A stretch of 42,415 nucleotides of DNA from Candidatus Alcyoniella australis (GTDB lineage: Bacteria > Lernaellota > Lernaellaia > JAVCCG01 > Alcyoniellaceae), in the NCBI GenBank assembly GCA_030765605.1, contig JAVCCG010000061.1, forward strand, positions 1 to 42,415, in the 5' to 3' direction. The notes beneath the pieces are model-generated. The model made no database searches, had not been told where the DNA came from, and was given only the letters and a program-made list of their open reading frames with translations. The position numbers and the translations under genes were made by a program. Shown here one piece after another: positions 2,888 through 38,544 of this stretch (position 1 is the first letter of the stretch; every line of letters begins with the position of its first letter).

Positions 2888-2903
2888 CCTCGCTCCGCAA
2901 CGC

Positions 2904-2931
2904 TAGCCTGGATCATGAATGATCCAGGCTA
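2904..2931. promoter_or_regulatory. Perfect palindrome TAGCCTGGATCATGAATGATCCAGGCTA (12-bp arms, 2-bp spacer). Member of the recurring intergenic motif family. Candidate operator or hairpin.
   Basis: Read directly from the sequence. AGCCTGGATCAT / ATGATCCAGGCT are exact reverse complements. Located in the 41-nt gap between the SPFH gene stop (2929) and the SGNH gene start (2887). Confidence 0.5.
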
Positions 2932-4077
2932 AAACTTATGGCCGCAGTTGAAGCAGAACTTGGACCCCTTGTCCAACGGCGCGTTGCAGCTCGGGCAGTT
3001 CTCCGGCGGCGCGGTCTCGGCCGGGTCCTGCCCGCTCAAGGGCTTGCCGCAGTTGGGGCAGAACTTGGATCCGCCGGGCACCGGCTGCGAGCACGATGGG
3101 CAATTTTCAGTAAGCGGCTTGCCGCAACTGGGGCAGAACTTGGAGTTGGCCGGGGCCTGGCCCTTGCAGTGCGGGCAGATCACCAGCGGTGCGGCCTGAC
3201 CCTGCGCGCCCTGCTGCATCGCGCCCATCACCATTCCGGGAATCATCATTCCCATTCCAGCTCCCACGCCCAGGCCCATGCCCGCGCCCGCGGTTCCGCC
3301 TTCGCCACCCGCGCCGCCGCCCGTACCCTCGGCAGCCTTCTCCATGGCCTTGGCGGCCTTGAACTGCATGAAGCGGCCCATGTCGCCCACCGCGCCCATG
3401 CCCGCTCGCTCGTCGATCATCTTTTGCACTTCGGCCGGCGGAGTGATCGCGTTGATGAAGAAGTCGAGCAGCTCCAGTCCGTACTTGCTGAAGTCGTCGC
3501 GCAGGCGCGATTTGGAGGCCACGCCCAGCTCGTCGTAGAGCGCGGCGAGGTTGAAGATCGTGTCCACGTTCTCGCCCAAAATATCGTTGAGGCGCGAGAC
3601 GATCACGTCCTTAAGGTAGTTGTCCACATCCAGGCTCGAGTACGCGCCGCGGGTGCCCACCAGATCGTTGATCAGCAGCAGCGGATCAGCGACGCGCATG
3701 GTGTAGGCGCCGAAAGCGCGCAAGCGCACCATGCCCAACTCCGAGTCGCGGAACGGCACCGGCTCCTTGGTGCCCCACTTGAGGTTGGTGTAGACCTTCA
3801 TGTTGATGAAGTAGATTTCGATGCGGAACGGCGACTTGTTGTCGAACGGCACGCCGATCAGCTTGGCCAGCAGCGGCACGTTGAGCGTGCTCAGGGTGTG
3901 GCGTCCCGCTCCCAAGATGTCGAGGGCCTTGCCGTCGCGGAAGAACACAGCGGCCTGATTCTCGCGCACCACCAACTGGCTGCCCACGCGGGTCTCGGCG
4001 CTGCCCGACTCGGGAATGCGGTGGACAATTTCCTCTCCGCTCTCGTCGAAGTACTCGATAACGTCAAGCATCTTCAT
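2929..4077 (-). CDS. SPFH/band-7 (stomatin/prohibitin-like, COG4260-type) protein with four tandem C-terminal zinc-ribbon repeats
   Basis: The N-terminus MKMLDVIEYFDESGEEIVHRIP...VVRENQAAVFFRDGKALDILGAGRHTL is typical of the COG4260 SPFH family. A Gly/Ala/Met-rich linker follows. Then come four repeats of CPxC-x7-SKFCPxCGKPL. AAGGAG sits 10 nt upstream of the ATG at 4077. Confidence 0.75.
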   Translation of the reverse strand: MKMLDVIEYFDESGEEIVHRIPESGSAETRVGSQLVVRENQAAVFFRDGKALDILGAGRHTLSTLNVPLLAKLIGVPFDNKSPFRIEIYFINMKVYTNLKWGTKEPVPFRDSELGMVRLRAFGAYTMRVADPLLLINDLVGTRGAYSSLDVDNYLKDVIVSRLNDILGENVDTIFNLAALYDELGVASKSRLRDDFSKYGLELLDFFINAITPPAEVQKMIDERAGMGAVGDMGRFMQFKAAKAMEKAAEGTGGGAGGEGGTAGAGMGLGVGAGMGMMIPGMVMGAMQQGAQGQAAPLVICPHCKGQAPANSKFCPSCGKPLTENCPSCSQPVPGGSKFCPNCGKPLSGQDPAETAPPENCPSCNAPLDKGSKFCFNCGHKF

Positions 4078-4111
4078 CAGTCAACGTCTCCTTGGAAGAG
4101 TGTGCATCGCA

Positions 4112-4140
4112 GTAGAACCCTCATGAATCATCCAGGCTAG
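4112..4140 (+). repeat. Intergenic motif copy GTAGAACCCTCATGAATCATCCAGGCTAG
   Basis: Seen in the sequence. Overlaps the stop codon (cta at 4137-4139) of the upstream minus-strand gene. Lies 35 nt upstream of the SPFH ATG. Matches the copies at 35435, 4832 and 4677 (inverted) and the palindrome at 2904. Confidence 0.6.
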
Positions 4141-4661
4141 ATCTGGTTGAACGAGTCTTTGCGCAAACCCGCGAACTGTTCGAGCCTGTCGATCGATCCG
4201 TCGAACTCATGGATCCGATTCTTGATCTCCGGGTCGGGCAGATCGGCCTTGGCCCAGGCGTCGGCCTCGAGCACGAGCTGCTCGACCAAGTCGAGGATCT
4301 TGCGGTCGTAATCGTAGAGCGCGGCAAGCTGGGGCTCCTTGATCTTCTGCGGATCAAAGTAGCCCGAATAGCCGTAGGCCGCGAAACGGTGCGTGTCGCG
4401 TACGCGATCGAGCTTGCGCGTCAGCTTGTCCAGCAGGTCGAGCATGCTCAGCTTGCCCGACTCGACACGCTCGGATTTGATGCGCTCCAGCGCGTTCTTG
4501 ACCGCGTTGATGCGGCCCACAGTGTGCTCGCGCAGCAGCTTGTCCGCGTCGCGGAACTTCTCCTTGGCGCGATATCCGCGCAGCACGGGGATCGAGTCGG
4601 CCAACTCCTCGAATTTCTCGGCCCAACCCGTGGCCTGCACCGGACCGCTCGCATCGCTCAT
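4137..4661 (-). CDS. Hypothetical protein, possibly co-transcribed with the downstream SPFH gene
   Basis: Track ORF 4137..4685. The second ATG at 4661 (MSDASGPVQ...) has a GGAGG 5 nt upstream. The first ATG at 4685 lies inside the repeat motif and has no RBS. Predicted helical/coiled-coil. No family was recognised. Confidence 0.5.
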   Translation of the reverse strand: MSDASGPVQATGWAEKFEELADSIPVLRGYRAKEKFRDADKLLREHTVGRINAVKNALERIKSERVESGKLSMLDLLDKLTRKLDRVRDTHRFAAYGYSGYFDPQKIKEPQLAALYDYDRKILDLVEQLVLEADAWAKADLPDPEIKNRIHEFDGSIDRLEQFAGLRKDSFNQI

Positions 4662-4676
4662 CGCCGCCTCCAGACT

Positions 4677-4704
4677 AGCCCGCATTATTCATGAGGCTTC
4701 TACT
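4677..4704 (-). repeat. Intergenic motif copy in inverted orientation. Left arm of a 20-bp perfect inverted repeat.
   Basis: The plus strand reads agcccgcattattcatgaggcttctac. Its reverse complement is GTAGAAGCCTCATGAATAATGCGGGCT. Confidence 0.6.
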
Positions 4705-4831
4705 GCGGCGCACAATCTGCTCTCAACAACAGCGTCATCCTCGCCGATCCGTGCTCGACGTACTGCAGGGAGTACGCCTGCGCAGTATCGGCTCGTCTTC
4801 CTTGTTCTTGCGGCATCTTGCACGCCTCGCT

Positions 4832-4858
4832 ACGAACCCTCATGAATAATGCGGGCTG
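4832..4858 (+). repeat. Intergenic motif copy. Right arm of the 20-bp perfect inverted repeat.
   Basis: ACGAACCCTCATGAATAATGCGGGCT. The 20 nt cctcatgaataatgcgggct (4838-4857) are the exact reverse complement of 4677-4696. Confidence 0.6.
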
Positions 4859-4953
4859 ATTGTGTATATTCGCCAAGCTACCTGCCCCGCCCCACGTTGG
4901 TCAAGGTTCGCGGCGCATAGCCCCTTATCGACAATATGTCCGTGGAGATTAGT

Positions 4954-6483
4954 TTATTCAACCAATGACAATAATTCTTCACGTGCTTGCGATTGATCGA
5001 TACGCCACAGCTCGATTGCCAGGCCCGCGTCCTGAAAAACCAGCCGCTGTTCAAAGCGCAGATCGCCCACTGGCAGTCGCTGCTGATACGCGCGAAAGGC
5101 CGCGTGGTCCGTGGTGTCAAAGGCCGAGCCGGGCCGCACCTCAATACGGATCACGCTCTTGGCCTCAATGCGGGACGCTGCCGCGGCCAGGGTCGTGTCG
5201 CCCTGGAAAAACGCGTCGTCAACAACAATCAATCCTGGATCCAGATCTTGACGCAGGGCGTAAATCCGCAACAGGTCGGGCGACAGCTCGCTGAACGTGC
5301 CCGCCGCCAGCACGGGCTGTGGCCCGTCGATCCAGCCCACGGCCTGCTGAGCCGCCACGCGCACGACCTGCCGCGGGCTGTCAAGCTGATGCTCGGCCAT
5401 CGCCTGGATATAGGTTGTGAAATGCCGCATTGGCGCAACAATCGAGAGCACCAGCAGCAGGGCTATCGTGCATTGCACAACGCGCGCCCTGGAAAGCGAG
5501 AACAGCGCAGCCCAGCCCATTGCGGCCAGGGCCGGAACCAGCATCAGGAACGGAAAGGCGAAACGCGGATGATGATAAGGGTGCAGCGTACAGGCGATCA
5601 GCCCCACTGCCGCAAAGATTGTTAATTGTCGCGCGCGTCTGTTCCACACGGCCCACACCGCGCCCACCAGCGCCAGCAGGCCGGGCACTATCGAGAACGT
5701 ATAGAACGAACGCCAGGCGCGGGCGTAGAACAGCAGTCCGCTGCCATCGGCCTCCGACGTGCGGTTGCGCAGAAACTGCGCCGCGCTGATCAGCTTTTCC
5801 GGGAACGGATAGGCGAACCAGACGATCGATGCCAGTACGCTTGGCAGCGCCAAAATCAACAGTCCGCGCAATCGACGCTGTCGCAATCGGCCGTCGCACA
5901 GCACGCACAACGCTGCGCTGCAAAGGGCGATCAGACCGTAGTTGTACTTGAGCATCAACAGCGCGGCACAGGCCAGGCCCGCGGCCCACAGGTGCGGCTC
6001 GCTTTGCCGATCATCAGCATCACCGCTGAGCAACAGCACGATCAGGCATGTCAGCGCCCACGACGGAACCTCGAGCATGGCCCGCAGGCTGTAATCCACG
6101 AAGTACGGGCTGCAACAGGCGATCACCACGGCCCAGGCCCCCAGGGCCGCGCTGTTCTTGATACCGCTACGCAGCACGATCATGTAGCTCAGCGCCAGTC
6201 CCAGAAGCGCCATGGCGAACGCGCAGAGCCGCGCGCCGCAAATCGGATCGGAGCTAAAAGCGCCGGGCAGCAACAGCAGCGTGGAGAGCGGCGGCCAGGT
6301 TTGATAATTCCAGACCACGTCCAGGGCGTGGCCGCATGCGCCGCGTTCGAGCGCATCGCCGATTTCCAACGCCCGATAGATCAGCGTGGCCTCGTCCCAG
6401 TCCGGCGCAGGCAACAGATCGAGCAGGGTCAGCGGCGCCAGAGCCGTGGGGATCAGCAGTAAGATAAGGGCTGCAAATCGCAA
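4954..6483 (-). CDS. Polytopic membrane protein, GT-C fold (ArnT/PMT-like glycosyltransferase family 39/83 candidate)
   Basis: About ten predicted TM helices. An early periplasmic loop carries the DE motif (PDWDEATLIYRA), as in ArnT/PMT enzymes. A C-terminal soluble domain follows. Confidence 0.45.
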   Translation of the reverse strand: MRFAALILLLIPTALAPLTLLDLLPAPDWDEATLIYRALEIGDALERGACGHALDVVWNYQTWPPLSTLLLLPGAFSSDPICGARLCAFAMALLGLALSYMIVLRSGIKNSAALGAWAVVIACCSPYFVDYSLRAMLEVPSWALTCLIVLLLSGDADDRQSEPHLWAAGLACAALLMLKYNYGLIALCSAALCVLCDGRLRQRRLRGLLILALPSVLASIVWFAYPFPEKLISAAQFLRNRTSEADGSGLLFYARAWRSFYTFSIVPGLLALVGAVWAVWNRRARQLTIFAAVGLIACTLHPYHHPRFAFPFLMLVPALAAMGWAALFSLSRARVVQCTIALLLVLSIVAPMRHFTTYIQAMAEHQLDSPRQVVRVAAQQAVGWIDGPQPVLAAGTFSELSPDLLRIYALRQDLDPGLIVVDDAFFQGDTTLAAAASRIEAKSVIRIEVRPGSAFDTTDHAAFRAYQQRLPVGDLRFEQRLVFQDAGLAIELWRIDQSQAREELLSLVE

Positions 6484-6657
6484 TTGTGCGATCCTATTGA
6501 GTGTGAATCAACGTCGAATACACCTGAATGCAGCATATATACGGGACGCGATCCTGACAAGCCGACTGAGGTTGCCGCTGCCGGGGTCGATGACAATCGA
6601 TCAAGAGAATTGGTAGATTATGATGATCGATCATTCTTCGTTCGCCCCGGAGGTCCG

Positions 6658-8172
6658 ATGTCCAAAGCGTTGCGCCTGTTAACGGTCCTGTTGTGCTTGC
6701 TGATCCCGCTGGCGTTGGTCGCCTGCGATCAGGGCGCCGATGACGACGACGACGACCAGACCGCGGATGACGACGACCTTGACGACGACGATTTGGACGA
6801 CGACGCGGACGACGACGACGATACGCAGGACCCCGACTGGGATTTCATTGTCGACGAACAGGGGCGCGCGCTGATCTTGCACGGCTGCAACTTCGACGGC
6901 GGGGCCAAGTGGAACGCGGGCCTGCCGCCCCAAGGGGTCGAGCAGACGCAGAGCCTGTTTGGCGATTGGGGCTTCAACTTCGCGCGCTACTTAATTTTCC
7001 GGGCCGAGATCGACCCCGAGCCCGGCGTCTACAACGAGGACTATCTGGGCCAGGTCGAGACGCGGCTGGACTGGCTGGAGCAGGCCGGCATCCGCGTGGT
7101 GCTCGACATGCACCAGGACGTCTGGGGACCGGAGTTCCACAGCGGCGGCTCCGACGGCGCGCCGCCCTGGGCCACGATCACCGACGGAGTGCCGCACATC
7201 CCCTTTGCCCAGCTCCTCGGCGCCTGGGCCCTGGACTACCTCTCGCCCGCGGTGATGCGCGCCTTTGACAACTTCTGGGACTACGAGCTGCACCCCGAGC
7301 TGCAGGACCTCTACGCCGCAATGTGGGTCCACGTGGTGCAGCGCTTCAAGGATCACCCCAGCGTACTGGGCTACGACCTGATCAACGAGCCGTGGGAAGG
7401 GACCGGGATCTACAACCAGGGGCGCTTTGACCGCACCAAGTATTTCGAGTTCAACCAGCGGATGATCGACGCGATCCGCAGCGCGGACCAGGAGGGCTGG
7501 ATCTTCTACGAGCCGCGCGCCTTTGGCCCCAACCAGGGACTGCCATCGCATTTGCCCGCACTGGACGATCCGCGTCCCGGCGCGCAACGCCTGGCCTACT
7601 TCCCGCACATGTACTCGATCCTGGTCGAGCTTGAAGGCGGCTACGACCCGCTGCGCGATCCGATCCTCGAGGACTGGCCGCGCAACCGCACGATCGAGAG
7701 CGAGCTGCAGCGTGCGCCGCTGCTGGCCGGCGAATGGTCGTTGCTCACCTGGCCCGACCTGGAAAACCGCCTGCTGTTCAACGATGCGGCCCTGCGGATG
7801 TTCGAAAGCGCGACCTCGGGCTGGGCCTATTGGGATTGCGGCTCGTTCGAGCGCTCGCCGCTTGAGCTGCAAGAGCTGATCGCCTCGCCCTTTCCTCGCG
7901 CCGTGGCCGGTTGGCCCCTGGAGTACGGCTACGACCAAAGCGCGCGCGAGCTGAGCTTGACCTTTGAGGCGCGCGACAATGTCGAGGGACCGACCGAGAT
8001 CTATCTGCCGCTAAGCCGCTGCTGCCCTGACGGCTACGCAATCGAGGTCAGCGGCGTGGCGGAAGATGGCTGGCACAGCGAGTTTAACGACGATTCCCAA
8101 CTGCTCAGCATCTGGATCGATGAGACTTTTACCGAGGCCACAATCAGTATTTTTGCCGCACAGCCGCAGTAG
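6658..8172 (+). CDS. Lipoprotein: glycoside hydrolase family 5 domain, with a poly-Asp linker after the lipobox
   Basis: MSKALRLLTVLLCLLIPLALVAC is a signal peptide plus lipobox. It is followed by DQGADDDDDDQTADDDDLDDDDLDDDADDDDD. GH5 blocks: VVLDMHQDVWGPEF and GYDLINEPWEG (the NEP acid/base motif). GGAGG sits 4 nt upstream of the ATG at 6658. The track ORF begins at 6484, but the upstream residues have no signal peptide or RBS. Confidence 0.7.
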   Translation: MSKALRLLTVLLCLLIPLALVACDQGADDDDDDQTADDDDLDDDDLDDDADDDDDTQDPDWDFIVDEQGRALILHGCNFDGGAKWNAGLPPQGVEQTQSLFGDWGFNFARYLIFRAEIDPEPGVYNEDYLGQVETRLDWLEQAGIRVVLDMHQDVWGPEFHSGGSDGAPPWATITDGVPHIPFAQLLGAWALDYLSPAVMRAFDNFWDYELHPELQDLYAAMWVHVVQRFKDHPSVLGYDLINEPWEGTGIYNQGRFDRTKYFEFNQRMIDAIRSADQEGWIFYEPRAFGPNQGLPSHLPALDDPRPGAQRLAYFPHMYSILVELEGGYDPLRDPILEDWPRNRTIESELQRAPLLAGEWSLLTWPDLENRLLFNDAALRMFESATSGWAYWDCGSFERSPLELQELIASPFPRAVAGWPLEYGYDQSARELSLTFEARDNVEGPTEIYLPLSRCCPDGYAIEVSGVAEDGWHSEFNDDSQLLSIWIDETFTEATISIFAAQPQ

Positions 8173-8335
8173 CCGCCAGCCCAGGGTTACAACAAGCCGG
8201 CTGGTGTTGCCCGCTGCCAGGGTGACAATCGATCGGCAAATCGGGCACACGGTTGAAGCTCGCTTGGGAAAATTGCCTTTTGATTGGCGCAGGCGTAGCC
8301 TCAGTTGTATACATATTTCATCAGAGGTGCACGCC

Positions 8336-10018
8336 GTGAGAAAACGCTTTTTCACGTTTACCGCCCTGGCCTTCTCAGTTATCTGTGTCATCGGCATCGT
8401 GGCGTTCTGCTCTTGCGGGACTGATGATGACGACGACGCGGACGACGATGACGACGATCTTGACGACGACGCGGACGACGATGACGACGACGGTTTCCCC
8501 TGCGTCTGGGACCAGGTACGAGCAGGACATTGGGTGCATGCGGTGAACTTGCCGTGGGACAACTATGGCACCGACTTCGGAGAAAGCGCCTGGGGCTATC
8601 GCGGATTGGCAAACCAGGGGCCTGCCGGATGGCGCTGCAAACACGACGACGACAGCCAAGGGTGTGCGAGTTTGGATTGGAACGACGGGAAGCTCGTGGT
8701 GAACTTGAGCTTGAATGCCTCAGATCAGCTCAGATCGAATGCAATAACTTACTATTGTTTTGAGGAATCGGCGGCTTTGCCCTCGGAGGGGACGATCGAC
8801 CTTCGCGGAAAAACAGTTGCCGCCCAGGCAAGCTTTCCTGCCGGAAGCCAGGGGCCCTCATCCGCTCCCAACGAAGTAGTCCTCTTTCTCCAGGACATCA
8901 ACTGGAATTGGGGACAGAGCGCGCCGCAGAACATCGTGCCGGGCGACATGACGTTGAGCGTCGTGCCCGACACCCTGCCGGATTTCGATGAGACGCAGGT
9001 CCGCTGCATCGGCATCAGCATGACTACCAACGACGAGGCGCCGGATGATTACACTTATGACGGCTCCTTCACCGTCGATTACGTGCAGTCGCCGCCCGAG
9101 ATAAACTTCCCCTACGACACCGCCCATACGCGCACAGAAGATGAACTGCTGGACATCGCGGGCCTCGGGGCCACGGCGACCCGCGTATGGCTTTTCGCCG
9201 ACGGCCGATCAGGACTGGCATTCGATCCGGCCAGCGGAGAGGTCAGCGGCCTTAATCAGTTTTTTAAAGATGATTTCGACGAACTGATACGTCTGGCTGA
9301 TTCAAGCCGGCTATATCTGATCGTCGTGCTGTTTGACTTCCTGATGGGCGGCTCGTCCCCGGTGGAGGAGCCGGGAATCTTCGGCCACGCGGACCTGATC
9401 ACCGACCCGGCCAAGCGCGATTCCCTGATCGGGAATGCGCTGATCCCGCTCTTTGAGGAGTACGGCGATCGGTGCGAAATATTGTCGTGGGAACTGATGA
9501 ATGAGCCCGAATGGCTGTTGATCAACGATCCCGACCACGTGACGATCCTCGCGGGAAAGAGGCCGTCCGAGATCGCCACCGGCGGCGCGGCCACCTTCGA
9601 CCAGATGACCGAGTTTTTCAACGCTGTTCTTGAGGCATACCAGACCGCCGTGCCCGGCGGGCAACAGCTTTTCACCGTGGGAAGCGCCAGCGAACAATGG
9701 GCCGATCAGTGGTACGAGGCGCTGAACATGGATCTCGGTCAATTCCATTTCTGGAACGGTCCCGCACAGATCGACGAAGGTCTGAGCTTCGATTTCACGC
9801 CGCCGATCGCCGGCGTGCCCAACATCATGGGCGAGTTCAGCTCAGAGGCCGATTGCTGCGAAATACTGGAATCCGCCCTTGAGCTGGATTACTCGGGAGC
9901 CTGGCCCTGGGCCTATCGATCCAAGGACGAATCGAGCTTCCGCATGCTGGGCGACGATTGCCGCGAGTGCATGCAGCAGTTTGCAGAGGAACATCCCGAA
10001 ACGGTTCGCTTCGAATAG
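8336..10018 (+). CDS. Lipoprotein: second glycoside hydrolase family 5 (mannanase-like) domain, with a poly-Asp linker
   Basis: GTG at 8336 is preceded by cAGAGG. The N-terminus (V)RKRFFTFTALAFSVICVIGIVAFCSCG is followed by TDDDDDADDDDDDLDDDADDDDDD. GH5 block: ILSWELMNEPEW. Confidence 0.6.
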   Translation: MRKRFFTFTALAFSVICVIGIVAFCSCGTDDDDDADDDDDDLDDDADDDDDDGFPCVWDQVRAGHWVHAVNLPWDNYGTDFGESAWGYRGLANQGPAGWRCKHDDDSQGCASLDWNDGKLVVNLSLNASDQLRSNAITYYCFEESAALPSEGTIDLRGKTVAAQASFPAGSQGPSSAPNEVVLFLQDINWNWGQSAPQNIVPGDMTLSVVPDTLPDFDETQVRCIGISMTTNDEAPDDYTYDGSFTVDYVQSPPEINFPYDTAHTRTEDELLDIAGLGATATRVWLFADGRSGLAFDPASGEVSGLNQFFKDDFDELIRLADSSRLYLIVVLFDFLMGGSSPVEEPGIFGHADLITDPAKRDSLIGNALIPLFEEYGDRCEILSWELMNEPEWLLINDPDHVTILAGKRPSEIATGGAATFDQMTEFFNAVLEAYQTAVPGGQQLFTVGSASEQWADQWYEALNMDLGQFHFWNGPAQIDEGLSFDFTPPIAGVPNIMGEFSSEADCCEILESALELDYSGAWPWAYRSKDESSFRMLGDDCRECMQQFAEEHPETVRFE

Positions 10019-23910: not shown

Positions 23911-24052
23911 CGTGAGCACTCCGGTCGTAATGTGGCAGGCGAGCCTATCCAAGCGGCATTTAGCCTGGATTATTTATCAAGTTTCGTCAAATATTGCGGT
24001 AGCTGAATTTGACCGCTGAACAAATCGGGAATCCACGATATGATTTAAGATC

Positions 24053-33494: not shown

Positions 33495-35399
33495 ATGTTG
33501 GCGTTTCGCGAAAAGCACCTGTGGCTGCTGCTGCTGGCGGCGTTGTCGTTATTGGCCCTGGTCGCGGCCGGCTGTTCGGTCGGCGACGACGACGACGACG
33601 ATGACGACGATGACGACGATGATTTCGAGCTTGACGGCAATATCGTCGCGCCGCAGATCGACCCCACGGACTGCCTGACCGACGACGCCAAAGAGGCGGT
33701 CGAACTGGCGCCGGCCTGGCTGCGCACCGAGATGATCCTCAACCTGTGCGCTTTAGCGGACGATAAGCAGGACCTGGCCGCCGAGCTGGTGCTGGGCTAT
33801 ACCGACCCCAAATACATCGACGAGCTGGCGTTTTTAGCGGCCCACGTGGGCAAGACCGACTGGAACTACCCTTCCCTGGACATCGACCTGTTCTACGACA
33901 ACGTCGTGTCGGTCTACGCCGCGGACGAGCAGCTGGACTACGTGACCCTGATCGACGAGGGCGATCCGCTGACCGACGACGACTTCTTCACCACGGCCGA
34001 ATACAGTTCCTTTGACAGCTCGGGCAAGGCCCAGACCGTGCGCGTGGATCCCTATTACTACTACTGGTTCGTGGTCCATCCGCGGCTGGAGGACGAGGGC
34101 CCGCGCTACATCGACCCCGAAACCGGCGGCAGCGCCGATCCGCCCGACGGCGTGTTCTGGCGCGACTACCTGCTCAACCACTCCGACGATCTGTGCCCGG
34201 GCACAATCGACAATCAGACCGATTTCGAGGATCCGGAAAAGACTACCTGGGTGAGCTGCTCGGTGCTCGCCGATCTGCTCGCGGGCGTGGACACGGTCTG
34301 GGAGGGAACTGACGAAACAATCGACAATGGTGCCATTGGCTTAATCAGCTACTGGATCGACGAGGCGATGTGGTTCTTCAGCTATACTCGCCGGCCGGTG
34401 CAGCCCGTGGCGATCTACTCGGGCCATGTGGGGCGTTGCGGCGAGCACGCCGACCTGACCTCCGCCGCCACGCGCGCGGCGCTGATCCCCGCGGCCAACA
34501 TCGCCTCCTATGCCAACGACCACACCTGGAACGAGTTCTACGACTTCCTCTGGGTGCAGTACGAGCCGGTCAACGACATGGTTAACGCACCCAACGCCTA
34601 CGACACCTGGGGCAACGGCACCAAGGGCGCGTACCGCACGCGCGGCGACGGCTTCGCCGAGAACGCCACGTCGCTGTACACCACAACCGGCACCCTCGAG
34701 ATCACCGTGGTCGACTCCGCAGGCAACCCGGTGGACGAAGCGGTGGTGATCGCCAGCGGCAAATATGGCGGAAGGCAGATGGACCACACCATGAGCGTCA
34801 CCGACCAGAGCGGCTTCACCAGCTTCGAGGTCGGCGACGAGAACTACGTCTACCTCGAGGTCCGCTCGCCGCTGGCCAATTTCCCCGCCGAGCAGGTGAT
34901 CAAGAAGCGCATCAATGCCGGCCAAACCTATGAGGGCCAAATCGAGCTTGATGCCGAGCTTAAGACCCTGGACATCGCGCAGCCCGAGGACTACCAGGGC
35001 GCGGGCGTGGTCACGCTCGAGGTCGGCCTGATCGACGCGGTGCGTTACGTGCGCAACCAGGGGATCGTCGGCACCAATATCTTCACTCAGTCCTACGACG
35101 ACGTGCTGCTGCCGCTGTACATGGTCGACGCGCAGAACTACGCCCTCTACCAGGACGGCGAGCAGTTCGTTGCCCACGCCCTGACCTTTGATGCCAACGG
35201 CGAGGCGCAGTTCGACCTGCCCCACGGCGGCGACTGGATGCTGTTCGTGAGCAACTACTCGGGCGTGAGCAACTACATCACCGGCGCGTTGGCAGTGCAG
35301 ATCGTCAACGCCGCCACCGACGAGGTATTCGACTCGGCGCAGGTCGAGCTGTTCCTCGAGCCGGGCGATCTGGCGCTGTTTGAATTAAACGGATTGTAG
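33495..35399 (+). CDS. Lipoprotein: transglutaminase-like cysteine-protease core domain, with a 13-Asp linker after the lipobox
   Basis: The N-terminus MLAFREKHLWLLLLAALSLLALVAAGCSVG is followed by DDDDDDDDDDDDD. Transglutaminase-like core: GRCGEHADLTSAATRAALIPAANIASYANDHTWNEFY (a Cys...His...Asp/Asn arrangement). C-terminal Ig-like / CarboxypepD_reg-like beta domain (TGTLEITVVDSAGNPVDEAVV). Confidence 0.6.
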   Translation: MLAFREKHLWLLLLAALSLLALVAAGCSVGDDDDDDDDDDDDDFELDGNIVAPQIDPTDCLTDDAKEAVELAPAWLRTEMILNLCALADDKQDLAAELVLGYTDPKYIDELAFLAAHVGKTDWNYPSLDIDLFYDNVVSVYAADEQLDYVTLIDEGDPLTDDDFFTTAEYSSFDSSGKAQTVRVDPYYYYWFVVHPRLEDEGPRYIDPETGGSADPPDGVFWRDYLLNHSDDLCPGTIDNQTDFEDPEKTTWVSCSVLADLLAGVDTVWEGTDETIDNGAIGLISYWIDEAMWFFSYTRRPVQPVAIYSGHVGRCGEHADLTSAATRAALIPAANIASYANDHTWNEFYDFLWVQYEPVNDMVNAPNAYDTWGNGTKGAYRTRGDGFAENATSLYTTTGTLEITVVDSAGNPVDEAVVIASGKYGGRQMDHTMSVTDQSGFTSFEVGDENYVYLEVRSPLANFPAEQVIKKRINAGQTYEGQIELDAELKTLDIAQPEDYQGAGVVTLEVGLIDAVRYVRNQGIVGTNIFTQSYDDVLLPLYMVDAQNYALYQDGEQFVAHALTFDANGEAQFDLPHGGDWMLFVSNYSGVSNYITGALAVQIVNAATDEVFDSAQVELFLEPGDLALFELNGL

Positions 35400-35434
35400 C
35401 GCCAAGGTTATCCTCTTTCTTGAGCGCCTCGCTG

Positions 35435-35463
35435 ACGAACCCTCATGATTAATCCAGGCTAGT
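35435..35463 (+). repeat. Intergenic motif copy GACGAACCCTCATGATTAATCCAGGCTAG, ending 3 nt before the ATG at 35466
   Basis: Seen in the sequence. A 25/27 match to the copy at 4112-4140. Confidence 0.6.
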
Positions 35464-35465
35464 CG

Positions 35466-38345
35466 ATGCATCGTATCGCCTGCTCCTTGTTACTGATCGT
35501 GCTGCTCGTGCTCGGGCTGTGCCTGCCCTCTCTGGCCTACGACTCGCGCCTTGTTTGGCGCACGTTGGAGACCGAACACTTCTACGTACACTTCCACGAT
35601 GGCGAGCGCGAGCTGGCGCTGCGTGCCGCAATCCTCGCCGAACAGGTCTTCGACATGCTCTCCGAGCAGCTTGATTGGCAGCCTTGGGGCAAGGTCCAGC
35701 TGGTAATCGCCGACGACTCGGACCGCGCCAACGGCTGGGCGAGCACCATTCCCTACAACACCGTGCGGCTCTATGCCACGGCCCCGACCTCGGATCAGCG
35801 CATCGACGAATACGGGGATTGGTTCCACGGCCTGCTGATGCACGAGATGACCCACGTGCTGCACATCGACCAGGCGCGCGGATTCAACCGGCTGTTCCGC
35901 GCGATCTTCGGCCGGGTCTACGCGGTCAACGGCATCCACCCGATTTTGCAGATCGAGGGGCTGGCCGTGCTCAAGGAGACCAGCAACACCGAGCACGGCC
36001 GCGGTCGCTCGAGCCTGACCCAGATGTATCTGCGCGCAGCGATTCTCGAGGACCGCTTCCCGAGCATCGATCAGTCCACCACGTTCTTTCTGCGCTGGCC
36101 GGGCTCGGCCGTGCCCTACCTGTTCGGCGGCGCGTTCCACGTCTACGTGGCGGACAACTACGGTGAGAATTGCTGGACGCAGATCTCGAAACGCCACTCG
36201 CGCCAAGTCTGGCCGTTTCTCTACAACAGCAACGCCGAGCGCGTAATCGGCAAGAGCCTGGTCACCCTTTGGCGCGAATGGCAGACCGTGCTGCGCTCGC
36301 GCTTTGAGCGCCAGGCCGCACAGATTCGCTCCCAGGGCCTGTACCGGGGCGAGCGCGTGACGTTCAGCGGCTACCAGACGCGCAAACCGACATTCGCCGG
36401 GCCGCGCAGCCTCTACTTTCAGCAGCGCACACCGCGCCGTAAGAACCGGATCATGCTGCTCGACCTTCAGACCAGTCGTACGAGCAAGGTGGCCCTGATC
36501 GATGGCCCGGGGGGCATGGACGCCCTGGGCAACGATCTGCTGGTCTATTCCGACGACCGCGTGTATCAGATCGACTACCTGTTCAAGGACCTGTTCCTGA
36601 TCGACCGACGGCCGCGTAGCGAACGGATCACCAGCGGCAAACGCCAACGGCTGACGCGCGGCGCGCGCCTGCTCGACCCGGCGTTCTTCAGCGACGGCAA
36701 ACGCGTGCTGGCCGTGCAGAACCGCCTGCAGTCCAAAGACCTGGTGATCTACGACCTGGAGACGCGGAGCATCGAACGCGTTAGCGACCTAAGCCCCGAG
36801 CTGGTGCAGTTCGATCGGCCCGACGTGCACACCGATGGCCGCCGCGCGGCAGTGGCCGCGTGGCACGAGCGCGGCGAACGCGACATCTATCTCTACGACT
36901 TAGAGGACCACGTTTTCACGCGACTGACATCGCATCCGGCTAAGGAGATCGACCCGCAGTTCACGCCCGACGGCGAGTTGCTGTTGTTCAGCTCGGACCG
37001 CAGCGGCGTGTACAACATCTACGCCCTGGACCTGCCTAAGCAACGGCTGTTTCAATTGACCAACGTGCTCGGCGGCGCGTTCTGGCCCAGCGTCAGCTCG
37101 GATGGCGAGCTGCTGGCCTACACCGGCTACACTGCCGACGGGTTCGACGTGTTCGTGCTCGAGCTCGACAAAGCCTGGTGGCGCGAGGTGCCCTACGAGC
37201 CGCCCGCGCCCAGCGGGCCGCCGCGCAACGGCAACCCTATCGATCTCCAGGCCGCGGCCGAGCAGTTCCCCGAGCATAAATACAGCCCGTGGCGCACGAT
37301 CTGGCCGCGCTATTGGCTGCCCGAGCTTGGCACCACGGCCGATGAAACACTGTTCGGCATCACCACCTCGGGCCGCGACGTGCTGCAGTACCACTCCTAT
37401 TCGGCCACCGCGCTCTACGGGCCGCAGAGCGAATTCCTCAGCTACTGGCTGAGCTACGCCAACCGCCAGCTGTGGCCGACGATCAGGCTCAACCAGGCGG
37501 CCTTCGCCGACTCCTACGGCAAGCTGATCCGGCTGCCCGACGGGCGCCGCCGCCAGTACTTCGAGCGCCGGATAACCGGCAGCGTAGGGGCCTACGCGCC
37601 GATCGTCGAGCACCTCGTGGCGGGCGCGAGCTATCGCATTCAACAGCGCGACAACATCACACGCATCCCCTCCGACGCGATCAACCCACCCAATACCGGG
37701 CTGTTCTCCGGCCTGGCGCTGAGCCTGAGTTTCAACAACACGCAGAGCTACGGCCGCTCGATCAGCCCCGAGCGCGGCGTGGATTTGGGACTGGGCTTCA
37801 ACTGGTGGGCCGATTGGCTGGGCTCGGATTACGACCTGCGAATCATCAGCGCCTCGGCCCGCGCCTACCAGGGGCTGTGGCTCAATCACGCCTTGGCCCT
37901 GCGATTGGTCGGCGGACTGGCCCAAGGCGACGTGCTGCGCCAACGCACTTTCCGCCTCGGCGGGTTCGGCGGCAGCGGCGCATTTGCCGTGCCTTCCGAG
38001 GGCAGCTACTTTATGCGCGGGTTCGGCGCATCGCAGTTCAAGGGTCAGCGCATCGTCGCGGGTTCGGTTGAATACCGGCTGCCGATCTGGTGGATCGACC
38101 GCGGCATCAGCACCTGGCCGATCTACTTCAAGGTCTTGCACGCCAACCTGTTCTACGACACCGGCCAAAGCTTTGATCGCCTGGACTTCAAGCCGCGCGA
38201 CCTGCACCAAGGCCTGGGCGCGGAAATCAAGCTCGATACGCGCTTGGCCTACGGCATGGCGGTCAACTTCCGTTTCGCCCTGGCACAGGGATTGGGCGAT
38301 GAGGGCGACCTGCGCTACATGTACTACCTGGGCGGCCTTTTCTAG
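35466..38345 (+). CDS. Putative outer-membrane protein (959 aa): HEXXH metallopeptidase-like N-domain, TolB-like (PD40/WD40-like) beta-propeller region, C-terminal beta-barrel ending in Phe
   Basis: Signal peptide MHRIACSLLLIVLLVLGLCLPSLA. Zinc motif LLMHEMTHVLHI, with a downstream Glu in QIEGLAV. PD40-like repeats (FSSDRSGVYNIYALDL, SSDGELLAYTGY). The C-terminus, with alternating aromatic strands ending YMYYLGGLF, looks like an outer-membrane barrel (inference). Confidence 0.55.
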   Translation: MHRIACSLLLIVLLVLGLCLPSLAYDSRLVWRTLETEHFYVHFHDGERELALRAAILAEQVFDMLSEQLDWQPWGKVQLVIADDSDRANGWASTIPYNTVRLYATAPTSDQRIDEYGDWFHGLLMHEMTHVLHIDQARGFNRLFRAIFGRVYAVNGIHPILQIEGLAVLKETSNTEHGRGRSSLTQMYLRAAILEDRFPSIDQSTTFFLRWPGSAVPYLFGGAFHVYVADNYGENCWTQISKRHSRQVWPFLYNSNAERVIGKSLVTLWREWQTVLRSRFERQAAQIRSQGLYRGERVTFSGYQTRKPTFAGPRSLYFQQRTPRRKNRIMLLDLQTSRTSKVALIDGPGGMDALGNDLLVYSDDRVYQIDYLFKDLFLIDRRPRSERITSGKRQRLTRGARLLDPAFFSDGKRVLAVQNRLQSKDLVIYDLETRSIERVSDLSPELVQFDRPDVHTDGRRAAVAAWHERGERDIYLYDLEDHVFTRLTSHPAKEIDPQFTPDGELLLFSSDRSGVYNIYALDLPKQRLFQLTNVLGGAFWPSVSSDGELLAYTGYTADGFDVFVLELDKAWWREVPYEPPAPSGPPRNGNPIDLQAAAEQFPEHKYSPWRTIWPRYWLPELGTTADETLFGITTSGRDVLQYHSYSATALYGPQSEFLSYWLSYANRQLWPTIRLNQAAFADSYGKLIRLPDGRRRQYFERRITGSVGAYAPIVEHLVAGASYRIQQRDNITRIPSDAINPPNTGLFSGLALSLSFNNTQSYGRSISPERGVDLGLGFNWWADWLGSDYDLRIISASARAYQGLWLNHALALRLVGGLAQGDVLRQRTFRLGGFGGSGAFAVPSEGSYFMRGFGASQFKGQRIVAGSVEYRLPIWWIDRGISTWPIYFKVLHANLFYDTGQSFDRLDFKPRDLHQGLGAEIKLDTRLAYGMAVNFRFALAQGLGDEGDLRYMYYLGGLF

Positions 38346-38389: not shown

Positions 38390-38464
38390 TGGTGCCCCAG
38401 GGAGGGATCGAACCTCCGCACCCGGCTCCGGAGGCCGATGCTCTATCCACTGAGCTACTGGGGC
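38390..38464 (-). tRNA. tRNA-Arg (anticodon CCG)
   Basis: The reverse complement gives GCCCCAGTAGCTCAGTGGATAGAGCATCGGCCTCCGGAGCCGG...GGTTCGATCCCTCCCTGGGGCACCA. The cloverleaf folds by hand. The anticodon loop is CTCCGGA. CCA is encoded. Confidence 0.85.
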
Positions 38465-38468
38465 ATGA

Positions 38469-38544
38469 TGGTGGACGGTAGCGGACTCGAACCGCCGGCC
38501 TCTGCCTTGCGAAAGCAGCGCTCTTCCAACTGAGCTAACCGCCC
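38469..38544 (-). tRNA. tRNA-Ala (anticodon CGC)
   Basis: The reverse complement gives GGGCGGTTAGCTCAGTTGGAAGAGCGCTGCTTTCGCAAGGCAG...GGTTCGAGTCCGCTACCGTCCACCA. The G3:U70 wobble is the Ala identity element. The anticodon loop is TTCGCAA. CCA is encoded. Only 4 nt separate it from tRNA-Arg. Confidence 0.85.

What the first reader, a model, noticed from the sequence alone, without database searches (positions are those of the whole stretch)
4677..4858. 20-bp perfect inverted repeat around a 141-nt segment, immediately upstream of the RBS of the 4137..4661 gene
AGCCCGCATTATTCATGAGG (4677-4696) and CCTCATGAATAATGCGGGCT (4838-4857) are exact reverse complements. They are two inverted copies of the intergenic motif. 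On the minus-strand mRNA they would close a 20-bp stem ending about 5 nt before the GGAGG Shine-Dalgarno of the hypothetical gene that precedes the SPFH gene. The enclosed 141 nt contain nested short palindromes (CGTACTgcagggAGTACG; ACTGCAG...CTGCGCAGT). The region is either a large structured 5' leader (riboregulator, thermosensor or processing site) or a small MITE-like insertion carrying motif-family terminal inverted repeats. In either case the first ATG of the track ORF (4685) lies inside the repeat and is probably not the real start.
Basis: seen in the sequence. Interest (0 to 1): 0.75.

Follow-up and report, generated by a model that had tools for sequence, protein, structure and literature searches.

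The report
Small IS1380-type transposon remnant (MITE)
The inverted repeat marks the two ends of a 177-bp non-coding "hitch-hiker" transposon (a MITE) that uses the end sequences of IS1380-family insertion sequences and landed just upstream of a gene; it is a mobile-DNA insertion, not a regulator made for that gene.

Summary
4677-4696 and 4838-4857 are exact reverse complements, and the whole unit folds into one long hairpin. It is not a leader specific to this gene. The 20-mer is the terminal inverted repeat of a repeat family found here in 6 firmly supported phyla (a seventh rests on one short contig). I recovered 115 distinct complete units. They have sharp boundaries, unrelated flanks, CC..GG termini and CTAG on both sides. 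A lon-thiL junction in Nitrospiraceae exists both filled and empty, and the empty site has a single CTAG. A metagenome scan found 16 units of 1.4-1.7 kb with the same termini. Each encodes an IS1380-family DDE transposase. The window unit (4679-4855, minus orientation) is therefore a MITE of IS1380 type, presumably moved in trans. An 85%-identical sibling with unrelated flanks confirms its boundaries. The window holds at least five more fragments of the family. Distant orthologues of the downstream gene lack the unit, Rfam has no match, and the family shows no orientation bias towards host genes. One point is unexplained: the fold-back, a central hairpin and asymmetric subterminal motifs are conserved with compensatory changes across phyla. 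I rate it ordinary to mildly interesting.

The parts
4679..4855 (-). Complete 177-bp non-autonomous element (MITE) with termini 5'-CCCGC...GCGGG-3'. Its 'L' end (GAGGGTTCGTAGCGA) is at 4855 and its 'R' end (GCAGTAGAAGCC) at 4679, so it points the same way as the flanking genes.
   Evidence: nhmmer with the family profile gives E = 2.8e-30 over model positions 1-179 on the minus strand. The sibling copy L173 is 84.6% identical, and the similarity stops exactly at the termini.
4679..4696 (+). Terminal inverted repeat at the R end (CCCGCATTATTCATGAGG). It contains the spurious ATG at 4685-4683 on the minus strand.
   Evidence: The same 18-mer ends 16 IS1380-family elements.
4838..4855 (-). Terminal inverted repeat at the L end (CCCGCATTATTCATGAGG read on the minus strand).
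4675..4678 (.). Flanking CTAG, the copy of the target site on the R-end side.
   Evidence: Sequence. Family statistic: 58 of 115 units have CTAG on both sides.
4856..4859 (.). Flanking CTGA, a degenerate second copy of the target site on the L-end side.
   Evidence: Sequence. 50 of 115 family members also have unequal flanks.
4757..4778 (-). Apical hairpin of the element (GGCGUACU-CCCUGC-AGUACGUC on the minus strand). This is the family-wide central hairpin.
   Evidence: Folds. Compensatory changes across phyla at alignment columns 82-89/96-103.
4667..4671 (-). Shine-Dalgarno GGAGG of the downstream gene. It lies 5 nt after the element's flank and outside the hairpin.
   Evidence: Sequence.
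4137..4661 (-). Hypothetical gene (174 aa, no Pfam domain) whose upstream region received the insertion. It is paired with the SPFH/zinc-ribbon gene at 2929-4077 in distant relatives too.
4095..4140 (+). Solo R-end fragment of the same family (about 42 nt) plus its CTAG. The TAG of that CTAG is the stop codon of gene 4137-4661.
   Evidence: nhmmer matches model positions 147-179 with E = 1.4e-4.
2903..2932 (-). 22-nt mini-palindrome CCTGGATCATTCATGATCCAGG, made of two family tips fused at TCATGA. It is flanked by TTAG/CTAG and sits directly after the SPFH stop codon.
   Evidence: (arms of 13 nt, 100% complementary).
35421..35462 (-). Solo L-end fragment plus CTAG, 5 nt upstream of the ATG at 35466.
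   Evidence: nhmmer matches model positions 1-38 with E = 1e-4.
23961..24040 (+). Decayed copy of about 80 nt (TAGCCTGGATT ... AATCCACGATA).

Best explanation
The 20-bp inverted repeat is the pair of terminal inverted repeats of a 177-bp miniature inverted-repeat transposable element (MITE). The element carries the end sequences of a clade of IS1380-family insertion sequences (5'-CCCGSATTATTCATGAGG ... CCTCATGAATAATSCGGG-3'). It has no gene of its own. It is presumably cut out and pasted by an IS1380-type DDE transposase supplied in trans, which recognises the ~18-bp termini and inserts at CTAG-like sites with a 4-bp duplication. This copy landed at a CTAG 11 nt upstream of the start codon of gene 4137-4661. 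That places it in the gap between the gene and the upstream glycosyltransferase gene, and it leaves the Shine-Dalgarno sequence free. Shown here: family membership, boundaries, target-site signature, insertion polymorphism elsewhere in the family, and the existence of autonomous partners with the same ends. Inferred: that those transposases move the short elements, and that this genome has or had one. If transcription reads through from upstream, the mRNA carries a very stable hairpin (about -100 kcal/mol) just before the ribosome-binding site. By analogy with Correia elements this could be bound or cut by RNase III and change transcript stability, but nothing here shows that it does.
For: (1) A degenerate 24-mer of the terminus gave 79 loci in species-representative genomes, against about 0.1 expected by chance. 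Several genomes hold many copies. (2) The copies have sharp common boundaries and unrelated flanks, and most are 170-215 nt long. (3) Flanks: of 115 non-redundant complete units, 58 have CTAG on both sides and 7 have equal non-CTAG 4-mers (CTAA x4, TTAG x3). Adjacent elements share one site. (4) Filled versus empty site: at the lon-thiL junction, L027 and L083 read ...CAC-CTAG[element]CTAG-GATATC. The 91%-identical lon loci L086 and L087 read ...CAC-TAG-CATGCC with a single CTAG. (5) Sixteen units of 1.43-1.70 kb are bounded by the same 18-mer in inverted orientation and flanked by CTAG. Each encodes a 442-475 aa protein matching NCBIfam NF033539 'IS1380 family transposase' (310-412 bits, cut-off 180) and Pfam DDE_Tnp_1_4. 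These transposases are only 29-82% identical to each other, so the terminus is a clade-wide feature. (6) IS1380 and piggyBac are described as sharing 4-bp target duplications and 5'-CC..GG-3' termini (PMC10045372), and both features are seen here. (7) For the window copy, nhmmer gives E = 2.8e-30. The sibling L173 is 84.6% identical with unrelated flanks. (8) At least five further fragments of the family lie in the same 42 kb. (9) The unit is not tied to the gene. Orthologous loci L080-L082 lack it, and the family shows no orientation bias and no copy inside a gene.
Against: The window copy itself has an imperfect target duplication (CTAG / CTGA). No empty site from a close relative of this organism was available. 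No IS1380 transposase lies in the 42-kb window, and the rest of this genome could not be searched, so mobilisation in trans in this host is inferred. The short elements share only the terminal ~18-24 nt with the autonomous copies found, so they are not simple deletion derivatives of those particular elements. Half of the family's flanks are unequal, and the mismatches concentrate at the outer positions of the 4-mer. This would also fit a 2-bp TA duplication.
Confidence: 0.88

Rival explanations
1. A gene-specific structured 5' leader (riboswitch, thermosensor, processing site) that evolved to control gene 4137-4661 and the SPFH operon.
For: The hairpin is very stable (z = -7.6) and ends 5 nt before the Shine-Dalgarno sequence. 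It lies on the same strand as the gene, and no promoter-like site is predicted between it and the start codon.
Against: The same element occurs in more than 100 unrelated contexts in 6 phyla. It shows no orientation bias relative to neighbouring genes. Orthologous gene pairs in L080-L082 have no such sequence. There is no Rfam match even at E <= 10. The SD and the start codon are not sequestered by the fold.
Confidence: 0.03
2. A Correia/Stowaway-like MITE moved by an IS630/Tc1-mariner transposase, with a TA duplication. In this reading the element is GCCCGC...GCGGGC.
For: The flanks read cTA...TAg, and adjacent elements share one TA. Mismatches between the two flanking 4-mers concentrate at the outer bases: 23 single mismatches at positions 1 and 4 against 7 at the central TA.
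Against: Every autonomous element found with these termini (16 of 16) encodes an IS1380-family transposase, and none encodes an IS630-type one. When the base next to CCC/GGG deviates, the far flank carries the same base in 9 of 11 cases, including two autonomous copies (CTAA/CTAA and TTAG/TTAG). This is what a 4-bp duplication predicts. CC..GG termini are the IS1380/piggyBac hallmark.
Confidence: 0.05
3. A REPIN-like or other single-strand hairpin element, moved by a domesticated HUH (RAYT-type) enzyme, or a host-exapted structured RNA family in which the transposon-like ends are incidental.
For: The whole-length fold-back is preserved by compensatory changes. In the Nitrospiraceae class 16 pairs carry double changes against 4.4 +/- 1.5 in shuffles, and at most 4 in slid controls. 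The central hairpin covaries across phyla. One strand folds better in 55 of 55 copies. The subterminal motifs are asymmetric and conserved.
Against: No gene recurs next to the elements; the largest shared family is generic response regulators, in 5 of 79 loci. The elements have a target duplication and an empty site, which RAYT/REPIN and IS200-type elements lack. There is no orientation bias to transcription units. The G.U excess over A.C is modest (672 vs 513), and the favoured strand is simply G-rich.
Confidence: 0.04

Closest known systems
IS1380-family insertion sequences (IS1380, IS1247, ISEcp1), prokaryotic relatives of eukaryotic piggyBac
   Same: Both have termini 5'-CC...GG-3', short terminal inverted repeats (about 15-20 bp) and a 4-bp duplication of a palindromic target (CTAG here, TTAA for piggyBac). 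Autonomous copies of about 1.65 kb with one DDE transposase gene carry exactly the termini of the window element (PMC10045372; PMC3281130 lists IS1247 at 1672 bp with IR 16/13).
   Different: The window element is 177 bp with no gene. Beyond the terminal ~18-24 nt it shares nothing with the autonomous copies found. Some family members such as IS1247 and ISEcp1 make 5-bp duplications (PMC3281130; ISEcp1 from my own knowledge).
Correia repeat-enclosed elements (CREE/NEMIS) of Neisseria
   Same: Both are 100-200-bp non-coding elements with terminal inverted repeats and a target duplication. They sit in intergenic regions, often just 5' of genes, and have length variants made by internal deletion. 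When transcribed, their ends pair into an mRNA hairpin, which in Neisseria is bound or cut by RNase III (PMC2649163, PMC10969869).
   Different: Correia elements are confined to one genus, have no known transposase, carry promoters and an IHF site, and pair only at the ends. The present family spans 6 or more phyla, has identifiable IS1380 partners and folds along its whole length. No sigma-70-like promoter was predicted in the window copy.
REPINs / REP elements with RAYT transposases
   Same: Both have two inverted halves forming a long hairpin, solo halves as decay products, and compensatory evolution of the stem.
   Different: REPINs have no target duplication and are tied to a single-copy RAYT gene flanked by REPs. 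Here there is a CTAG duplication, an empty site and no associated gene.

Membership tests
MITE derived from or mobilised by the IS1380 family | Terminal inverted repeats identical to those of autonomous elements that encode an IS1380-family transposase | tested here: met
   16 elements of 1.43-1.70 kb end in CCCGSATTATTCATGAGG on both sides and encode NF033539 / PF13701 proteins. The window arms are the same 18-mer.
MITE derived from or mobilised by the IS1380 family | 5'-CC...GG-3' termini (IS1380/piggyBac hallmark, PMC10045372) | tested here: met
   The window element reads CCCGC...GCGGG (4679-4855), as does the whole family.
MITE derived from or mobilised by the IS1380 family | 4-bp target-site duplication | tested here: inconclusive
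   At family level, 65 of 115 units have identical 4-mers (58 CTAG, 7 others), and the empty site has one CTAG. The window copy has CTAG / CTGA, which is degenerate. A 2-bp TA duplication cannot be strictly excluded, because CTAG is a palindrome.
MITE derived from or mobilised by the IS1380 family | Small size, no transposase gene | tested here: met
   The element is 177 bp. Its only ORF is a 47-codon frame that is not conserved in the family. tblastn with 17 transposases finds nothing in the window.
MITE derived from or mobilised by the IS1380 family | Many copies with unrelated flanks; presence/absence polymorphism | tested here: met
   115 non-redundant complete units were found. The sibling L173 has unrelated flanks. 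The lon-thiL junction is filled in L027 and L083 and empty in L086 and L087. Polymorphism at the window locus itself was not testable.
MITE derived from or mobilised by the IS1380 family | Actual mobilisation by the transposase | not testable with these tools
   This needs a transposition or binding assay.
cis-regulatory RNA leader (riboswitch / thermosensor) | Conserved association with a gene family and a fixed orientation upstream of it | tested here: not met
   The unit is absent in orthologous loci L080-L082. The four orientation classes count 15/13/13/12.
cis-regulatory RNA leader (riboswitch / thermosensor) | Match to a curated RNA family | tested here: not met
   Rfam 15 gave only two tRNAs for the whole window at gathering threshold. 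For 4000-5100 at E <= 10 it gave only a chance miRNA hit.
IS630/Tc1-mariner-type MITE (Correia-like) | TA duplication and partner transposase of IS630 type | tested here: not met
   The partner transposases are IS1380-type. Matching non-canonical 4-mers favour a 4-bp duplication.
REPIN / RAYT system | No target duplication; a RAYT gene flanked by the repeats | tested here: not met
   A duplication and an empty site were seen. No gene recurs next to the elements.

The most novel reading that the evidence does not exclude
The short elements may be one horizontally spread lineage rather than independent deletion products of local IS copies. In this reading, selection on one strand keeps their whole-length fold-back, their central G.U-containing hairpin and their asymmetric subterminal motifs across at least 6 phyla. 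That would mean the hairpin itself is functional. It could act as a single-stranded DNA or cruciform intermediate that IS1380/piggyBac-type transposases need for short substrates. Alternatively it could act as an RNA, for example a processed hairpin or an antisense regulator of the transposase. In the window it would then set the processing and stability of the transcript of the SPFH gene cluster.
Probability: 0.15. Interest if true: 0.55.

Novelty: new member of a known kind. Interest (0 to 1): 0.3.

Why it matters
For this window, the result removes a candidate riboregulator and corrects a gene start: 4661, not 4685. It also explains the recurring 'intergenic motif', which consists of IS1380-type transposon ends, solo ends and a fused mini-palindrome. 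These pieces sit at CTAG sites, several of which double as TAG stop codons. More generally, I found no published description of this MITE family. It links short hairpin repeats in Nitrospirota, Acidobacteriota, Planctomycetota, Thermodesulfobacteriota, Pseudomonadota and Lernaellota to one clade of IS1380 transposases. A census of 1.4 million prokaryotic MITEs found about 98% of clusters confined to one genus at 95% identity (PMC11602168), so a family recognisable across phyla is unusual, though not a new principle. The outward-facing ATG in the terminal repeat is a recurrent cause of over-extended ORF calls.

Tried and rejected
- Rfam, for the whole window at gathering threshold and for 4000-5100 at E <= 10, gave nothing relevant.
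- The sigma-70 promoter and intrinsic terminator scan of 4000-5100 found no promoter and no terminator in or next to the element. I therefore did not claim an outward promoter, although IS1380 members such as ISEcp1 are known for one (my own knowledge).
- Plasmid, phage and viral-contig searches with the element or its terminus found no match.
- A literature search for the sequence itself had no hit.
- An exact look-up of the SPFH protein found nothing on record.
- I tested for a small protein encoded in the element. Many Nitrospiraceae and Desulfarculales copies have a 25-codon ORF running from the ATG of the repeat to a TGA in the apical loop. The peptide is not conserved, the changes are compensatory in the stem rather than synonymous, and the window copy lacks that stop. 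I rejected this as a by-product.
- I looked for a G.U-wobble signature of a functional RNA strand. The L->R strand folds better in 55 of 55 copies, but G.U-type mismatches exceed A.C-type only 672 to 513, and that strand is G-rich. I judged this not decisive.
- Orientation bias to host genes: none.
- A recurrent neighbouring gene such as a RAYT-like enzyme: none.
- The 79 genome loci held no autonomous partner. This was because the search pattern included MITE-specific bases after the repeat. A shorter pattern in metagenomes found the partners.
- I first read the flanks as an IS630-type TA duplication and revised this after the IS1380 partners appeared.
- No empty site was found among the already fetched loci by flank BLAST. 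One was then obtained through lon homologues.

Full report
**The observation**

The two 20-mers at 4677-4696 and 4838-4857 are exact reverse complements. The repeat runs to 24 nt with one mismatch. The motif is not unique to this spot. With up to 3 mismatches it occurs four times in the window, against none in 100 shuffles. A looser search adds a mini-palindrome at 2904-2931 and a decayed copy at 23961-24040.

The 216 nt around the repeat fold into one long imperfect hairpin. As RNA, the minus strand gives -105 kcal/mol (z = -7.6) and the plus strand -83.7 (z = -5.0). As single-stranded DNA the fold gives -54.9 (z = -8.4).

On the minus strand the 3' arm ends 5 nt before GGAGG (4671-4667), which precedes the ATG at 4661. 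The longer ORF starting at 4685 begins inside the repeat. The deposited protein for this contig is the 174-aa version that starts at 4661. That same search identifies the contig as a MAG of Candidatus Alcyoniella australis, phylum Candidatus Lernaellota.

**It is a repeat family, not a local structure**

The four window copies resemble each other for about 45 nt, well beyond the 20-mer. I scanned one genome per species (GTDB representatives) with a degenerate 24-mer of the terminus. This returned 79 loci where about 0.1 would be expected by chance.

Most loci are from Nitrospiraceae, with up to 17 copies in one MAG. Others come from:
- Acidobacteriota (Thermoanaerobaculia)
- Planctomycetota
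- Desulfarculales (Thermodesulfobacteriota)
- Gammaproteobacteria
- one small Verrucomicrobiota contig

Taxonomy was checked.

Aligned on the motif, the copies share a knife-sharp boundary, and the sequence outside it is unrelated. Pairing inward-facing termini gave 65 complete units, mostly 174-211 nt. The window unit is one of them. A family profile scores it at E = 2.8e-30 on the minus strand. The same profile recognises the copies at 35421-35459 and 4105-4137 as a solo 'L' end and a solo 'R' end.

**It is not tied to the gene**

The two ends of the element are not equivalent. One end reads GAGGGTTCGTnnCGA and the other GCAGTAGAAGCC, and this holds across phyla, so each copy can be oriented. 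Relative to the nearest predicted genes, the four possible arrangements occur 15, 13, 13 and 12 times. No copy lies inside a gene.

The gene pair 'hypothetical + SPFH/double zinc ribbon' is conserved in three distant metagenomic relatives (33-42% identity). Their upstream regions contain no trace of the motif. Rfam has no match. No gene family recurs next to the elements. This rules out a dedicated leader and a RAYT-like companion gene.

**Evidence of mobility**

The flanks read CTA on one side and TAG on the other, and two adjacent elements share a single site. For a direct test I used the copy between lon and thiL in a Nitrospiraceae MAG (L027) and fetched the loci of lon homologues.
- A 98%-identical locus (L083) has the element at the same place.
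- Two 91%-identical loci (L086, L087) have no element. There the lon stop codon, within a single CTAG, runs directly into the thiL start.
- Another 91% lineage (L084, L085) carries a decayed copy.

So the element is an insertion at CTAG, and the site is repeated on both sides of it.

**The autonomous partner**

The genome scan had found only short elements, because my pattern included bases specific to them. These included pairs of inward-facing termini 1.4-1.7 kb apart.

In all, 17 long units were found. Sixteen of them encode a single 442-475-aa protein:
- It matches NCBIfam NF033539 'IS1380 family transposase' at 310-412 bits (cut-off 180).
- It matches Pfam DDE_Tnp_1_4 at E down to 9e-135. 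Two of the sixteen were confirmed by tblastn.

These transposases are only 29-82% identical to one another. Yet all the elements end in CCCG(G/C)ATTATTCATGAGG and are flanked by CTAG.

The literature describes IS1380 and its eukaryotic relative piggyBac as sharing 4-bp target duplications and 5'-CC..GG-3' termini (PMC10045372). IS1247 of this family is 1672 bp with 16/13-bp inverted repeats (PMC3281130). Read that way, the window element is 4679-4855 (CCCGC...GCGGG). It is flanked by CTAG (4675-4678) and by a degenerate CTGA (4856-4859).

**Flank statistics**

Among the 115 non-redundant complete units, 58 have CTAG on both sides and 7 have identical non-CTAG 4-mers: CTAA/CTAA four times and TTAG/TTAG three times. 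Two of those seven are autonomous copies. The other 50 units have unequal flanks.

When the base next to the element deviates from CTAG, the far flank shows the same base in 9 of 11 cases. This is what a 4-bp duplication predicts. The mismatches in the unequal pairs cluster at the outer positions, so a 2-bp TA duplication is not strictly excluded. I regard 4 bp as more likely.

**The window copy in particular**

A sibling of the same subfamily (L173) is 84.6% identical over 182 nt. Its flanks are unrelated, and the similarity stops exactly at the termini. It folds as well as the window copy (-100.9 vs -100.1 kcal/mol) despite 28 differences. Three base pairs changed on both sides and six changed in a wobble-compatible way.

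No IS1380 transposase is encoded in the window.

The neighbouring intergenic gaps of the same gene cluster also hold family debris, each at a CTAG whose TAG is the stop codon of the upstream gene:
- a solo end at 4095-4140
- a 22-nt fusion of two tips at 2903-2932

The fusion is the expected product of deletion between the TCATGA present in both arms.

**Likely effect here**

No promoter-like or terminator-like site is predicted between the upstream glycosyltransferase gene (4954-6483) and the start at 4661. The element is therefore probably transcribed as part of a longer mRNA. It is oriented so that its more stable strand is the RNA, and the ribosome-binding site stays unpaired.

In Neisseria, Correia elements in such positions form hairpins that RNase III binds or cleaves, which changes expression (PMC2649163, PMC10969869). 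The same could happen here. This is analogy, not evidence.

**What remains unexplained**

The short elements share only about 18-24 nt with the autonomous copies. Among themselves, across phyla, they nevertheless keep the asymmetric subterminal motifs. They also keep a central hairpin, GGCRTNCT-loop-AGNAYGTYGA, with clear compensatory changes (A-U 15 / G-C 11; A-U 14 / C-G 12).

Within the Nitrospiraceae class:
- 97.4% of pair cells are standard pairs.
- 16 pairs carry changes on both sides, against 4.4 +/- 1.5 in shuffles (0 of 500 reach the observed value) and at most 4 in slid controls.
- Two positions are conserved G.U pairs.
- The consensus fold is -87 kcal/mol on one strand and -57 on the other.

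This could reflect selection on a single-stranded form, either DNA or RNA. It could reflect templated repair within a palindrome. It could also be partly composition, since that strand is G-rich and G.U-type mismatches exceed A.C-type only 672 to 513. I could not decide between these.

**Verdict**

It is a MITE, specifically one with IS1380-family ends. I found no published description of this family, so it is a new member of a known kind. Its breadth across phyla is unusual, given that MITE clusters are overwhelmingly genus-specific at high identity (PMC11602168). The mechanism class is familiar, so interest is modest.

Noticed in passing
window 2903-2932: A 22-nt perfect mini-palindrome, CCTGGATCATTCATGATCCAGG, is flanked by TTAG/CTAG and sits directly after the SPFH gene's TAG stop. 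It looks like two transposon tips fused at their shared TCATGA, i.e. a hairpin-deletion product of a full element.
   Followed up: partly
window 4683-4685; also L022, L027, L041, L054, L060, L065, L074, L079: The terminal repeat carries an outward-facing ATG (AATAATGCGGG). In about 9 of 53 loci the longest ORF of the neighbouring gene starts 7 nt inside the element. This is a recurrent source of over-extended gene calls.
   Followed up: partly
window 4137-4140, 2929-2932; about 14 of 53 family loci (distance 0): The TAG of the CTAG target often is the stop codon of the adjacent gene. C-TAG stop codons therefore act as landing sites, and the elements pile up immediately 3' of genes.
   Followed up: partly
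L002, L004, L012 and other Nitrospiraceae copies; L058, L062, L066: A 25-codon ORF runs from the ATG in the terminal repeat to a TGA in the apical loop (MRVRDETAETP...GRHP*). It has the same length in several subfamilies, but the peptide sequence is not conserved, and the window copy lacks it.
   Followed up: yes
L008, L020 2716-3061, L023 4019-4321, L026 5942-6320, L046: Longer variants (300-380 nt) of the Nitrospiraceae element carry an extra internal module (...GCGAAGAATAATGAGG...). It may be a nested second repeat.
   Followed up: no
L198 4563-5433: An 871-bp unit has family termini and CTAG flanks but no recognisable transposase. It may be an internally deleted intermediate between the IS and the MITE.
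   Followed up: no
window 6484-8172, 8066-10018, 33495-35399: Three predicted secreted proteins have long runs of aspartate (DDDDDD...) right after the signal peptide or lipobox region.
   Followed up: no
window 38393-38544 (minus strand): Two adjacent tRNA genes are the only Rfam matches in the window.
   Followed up: no
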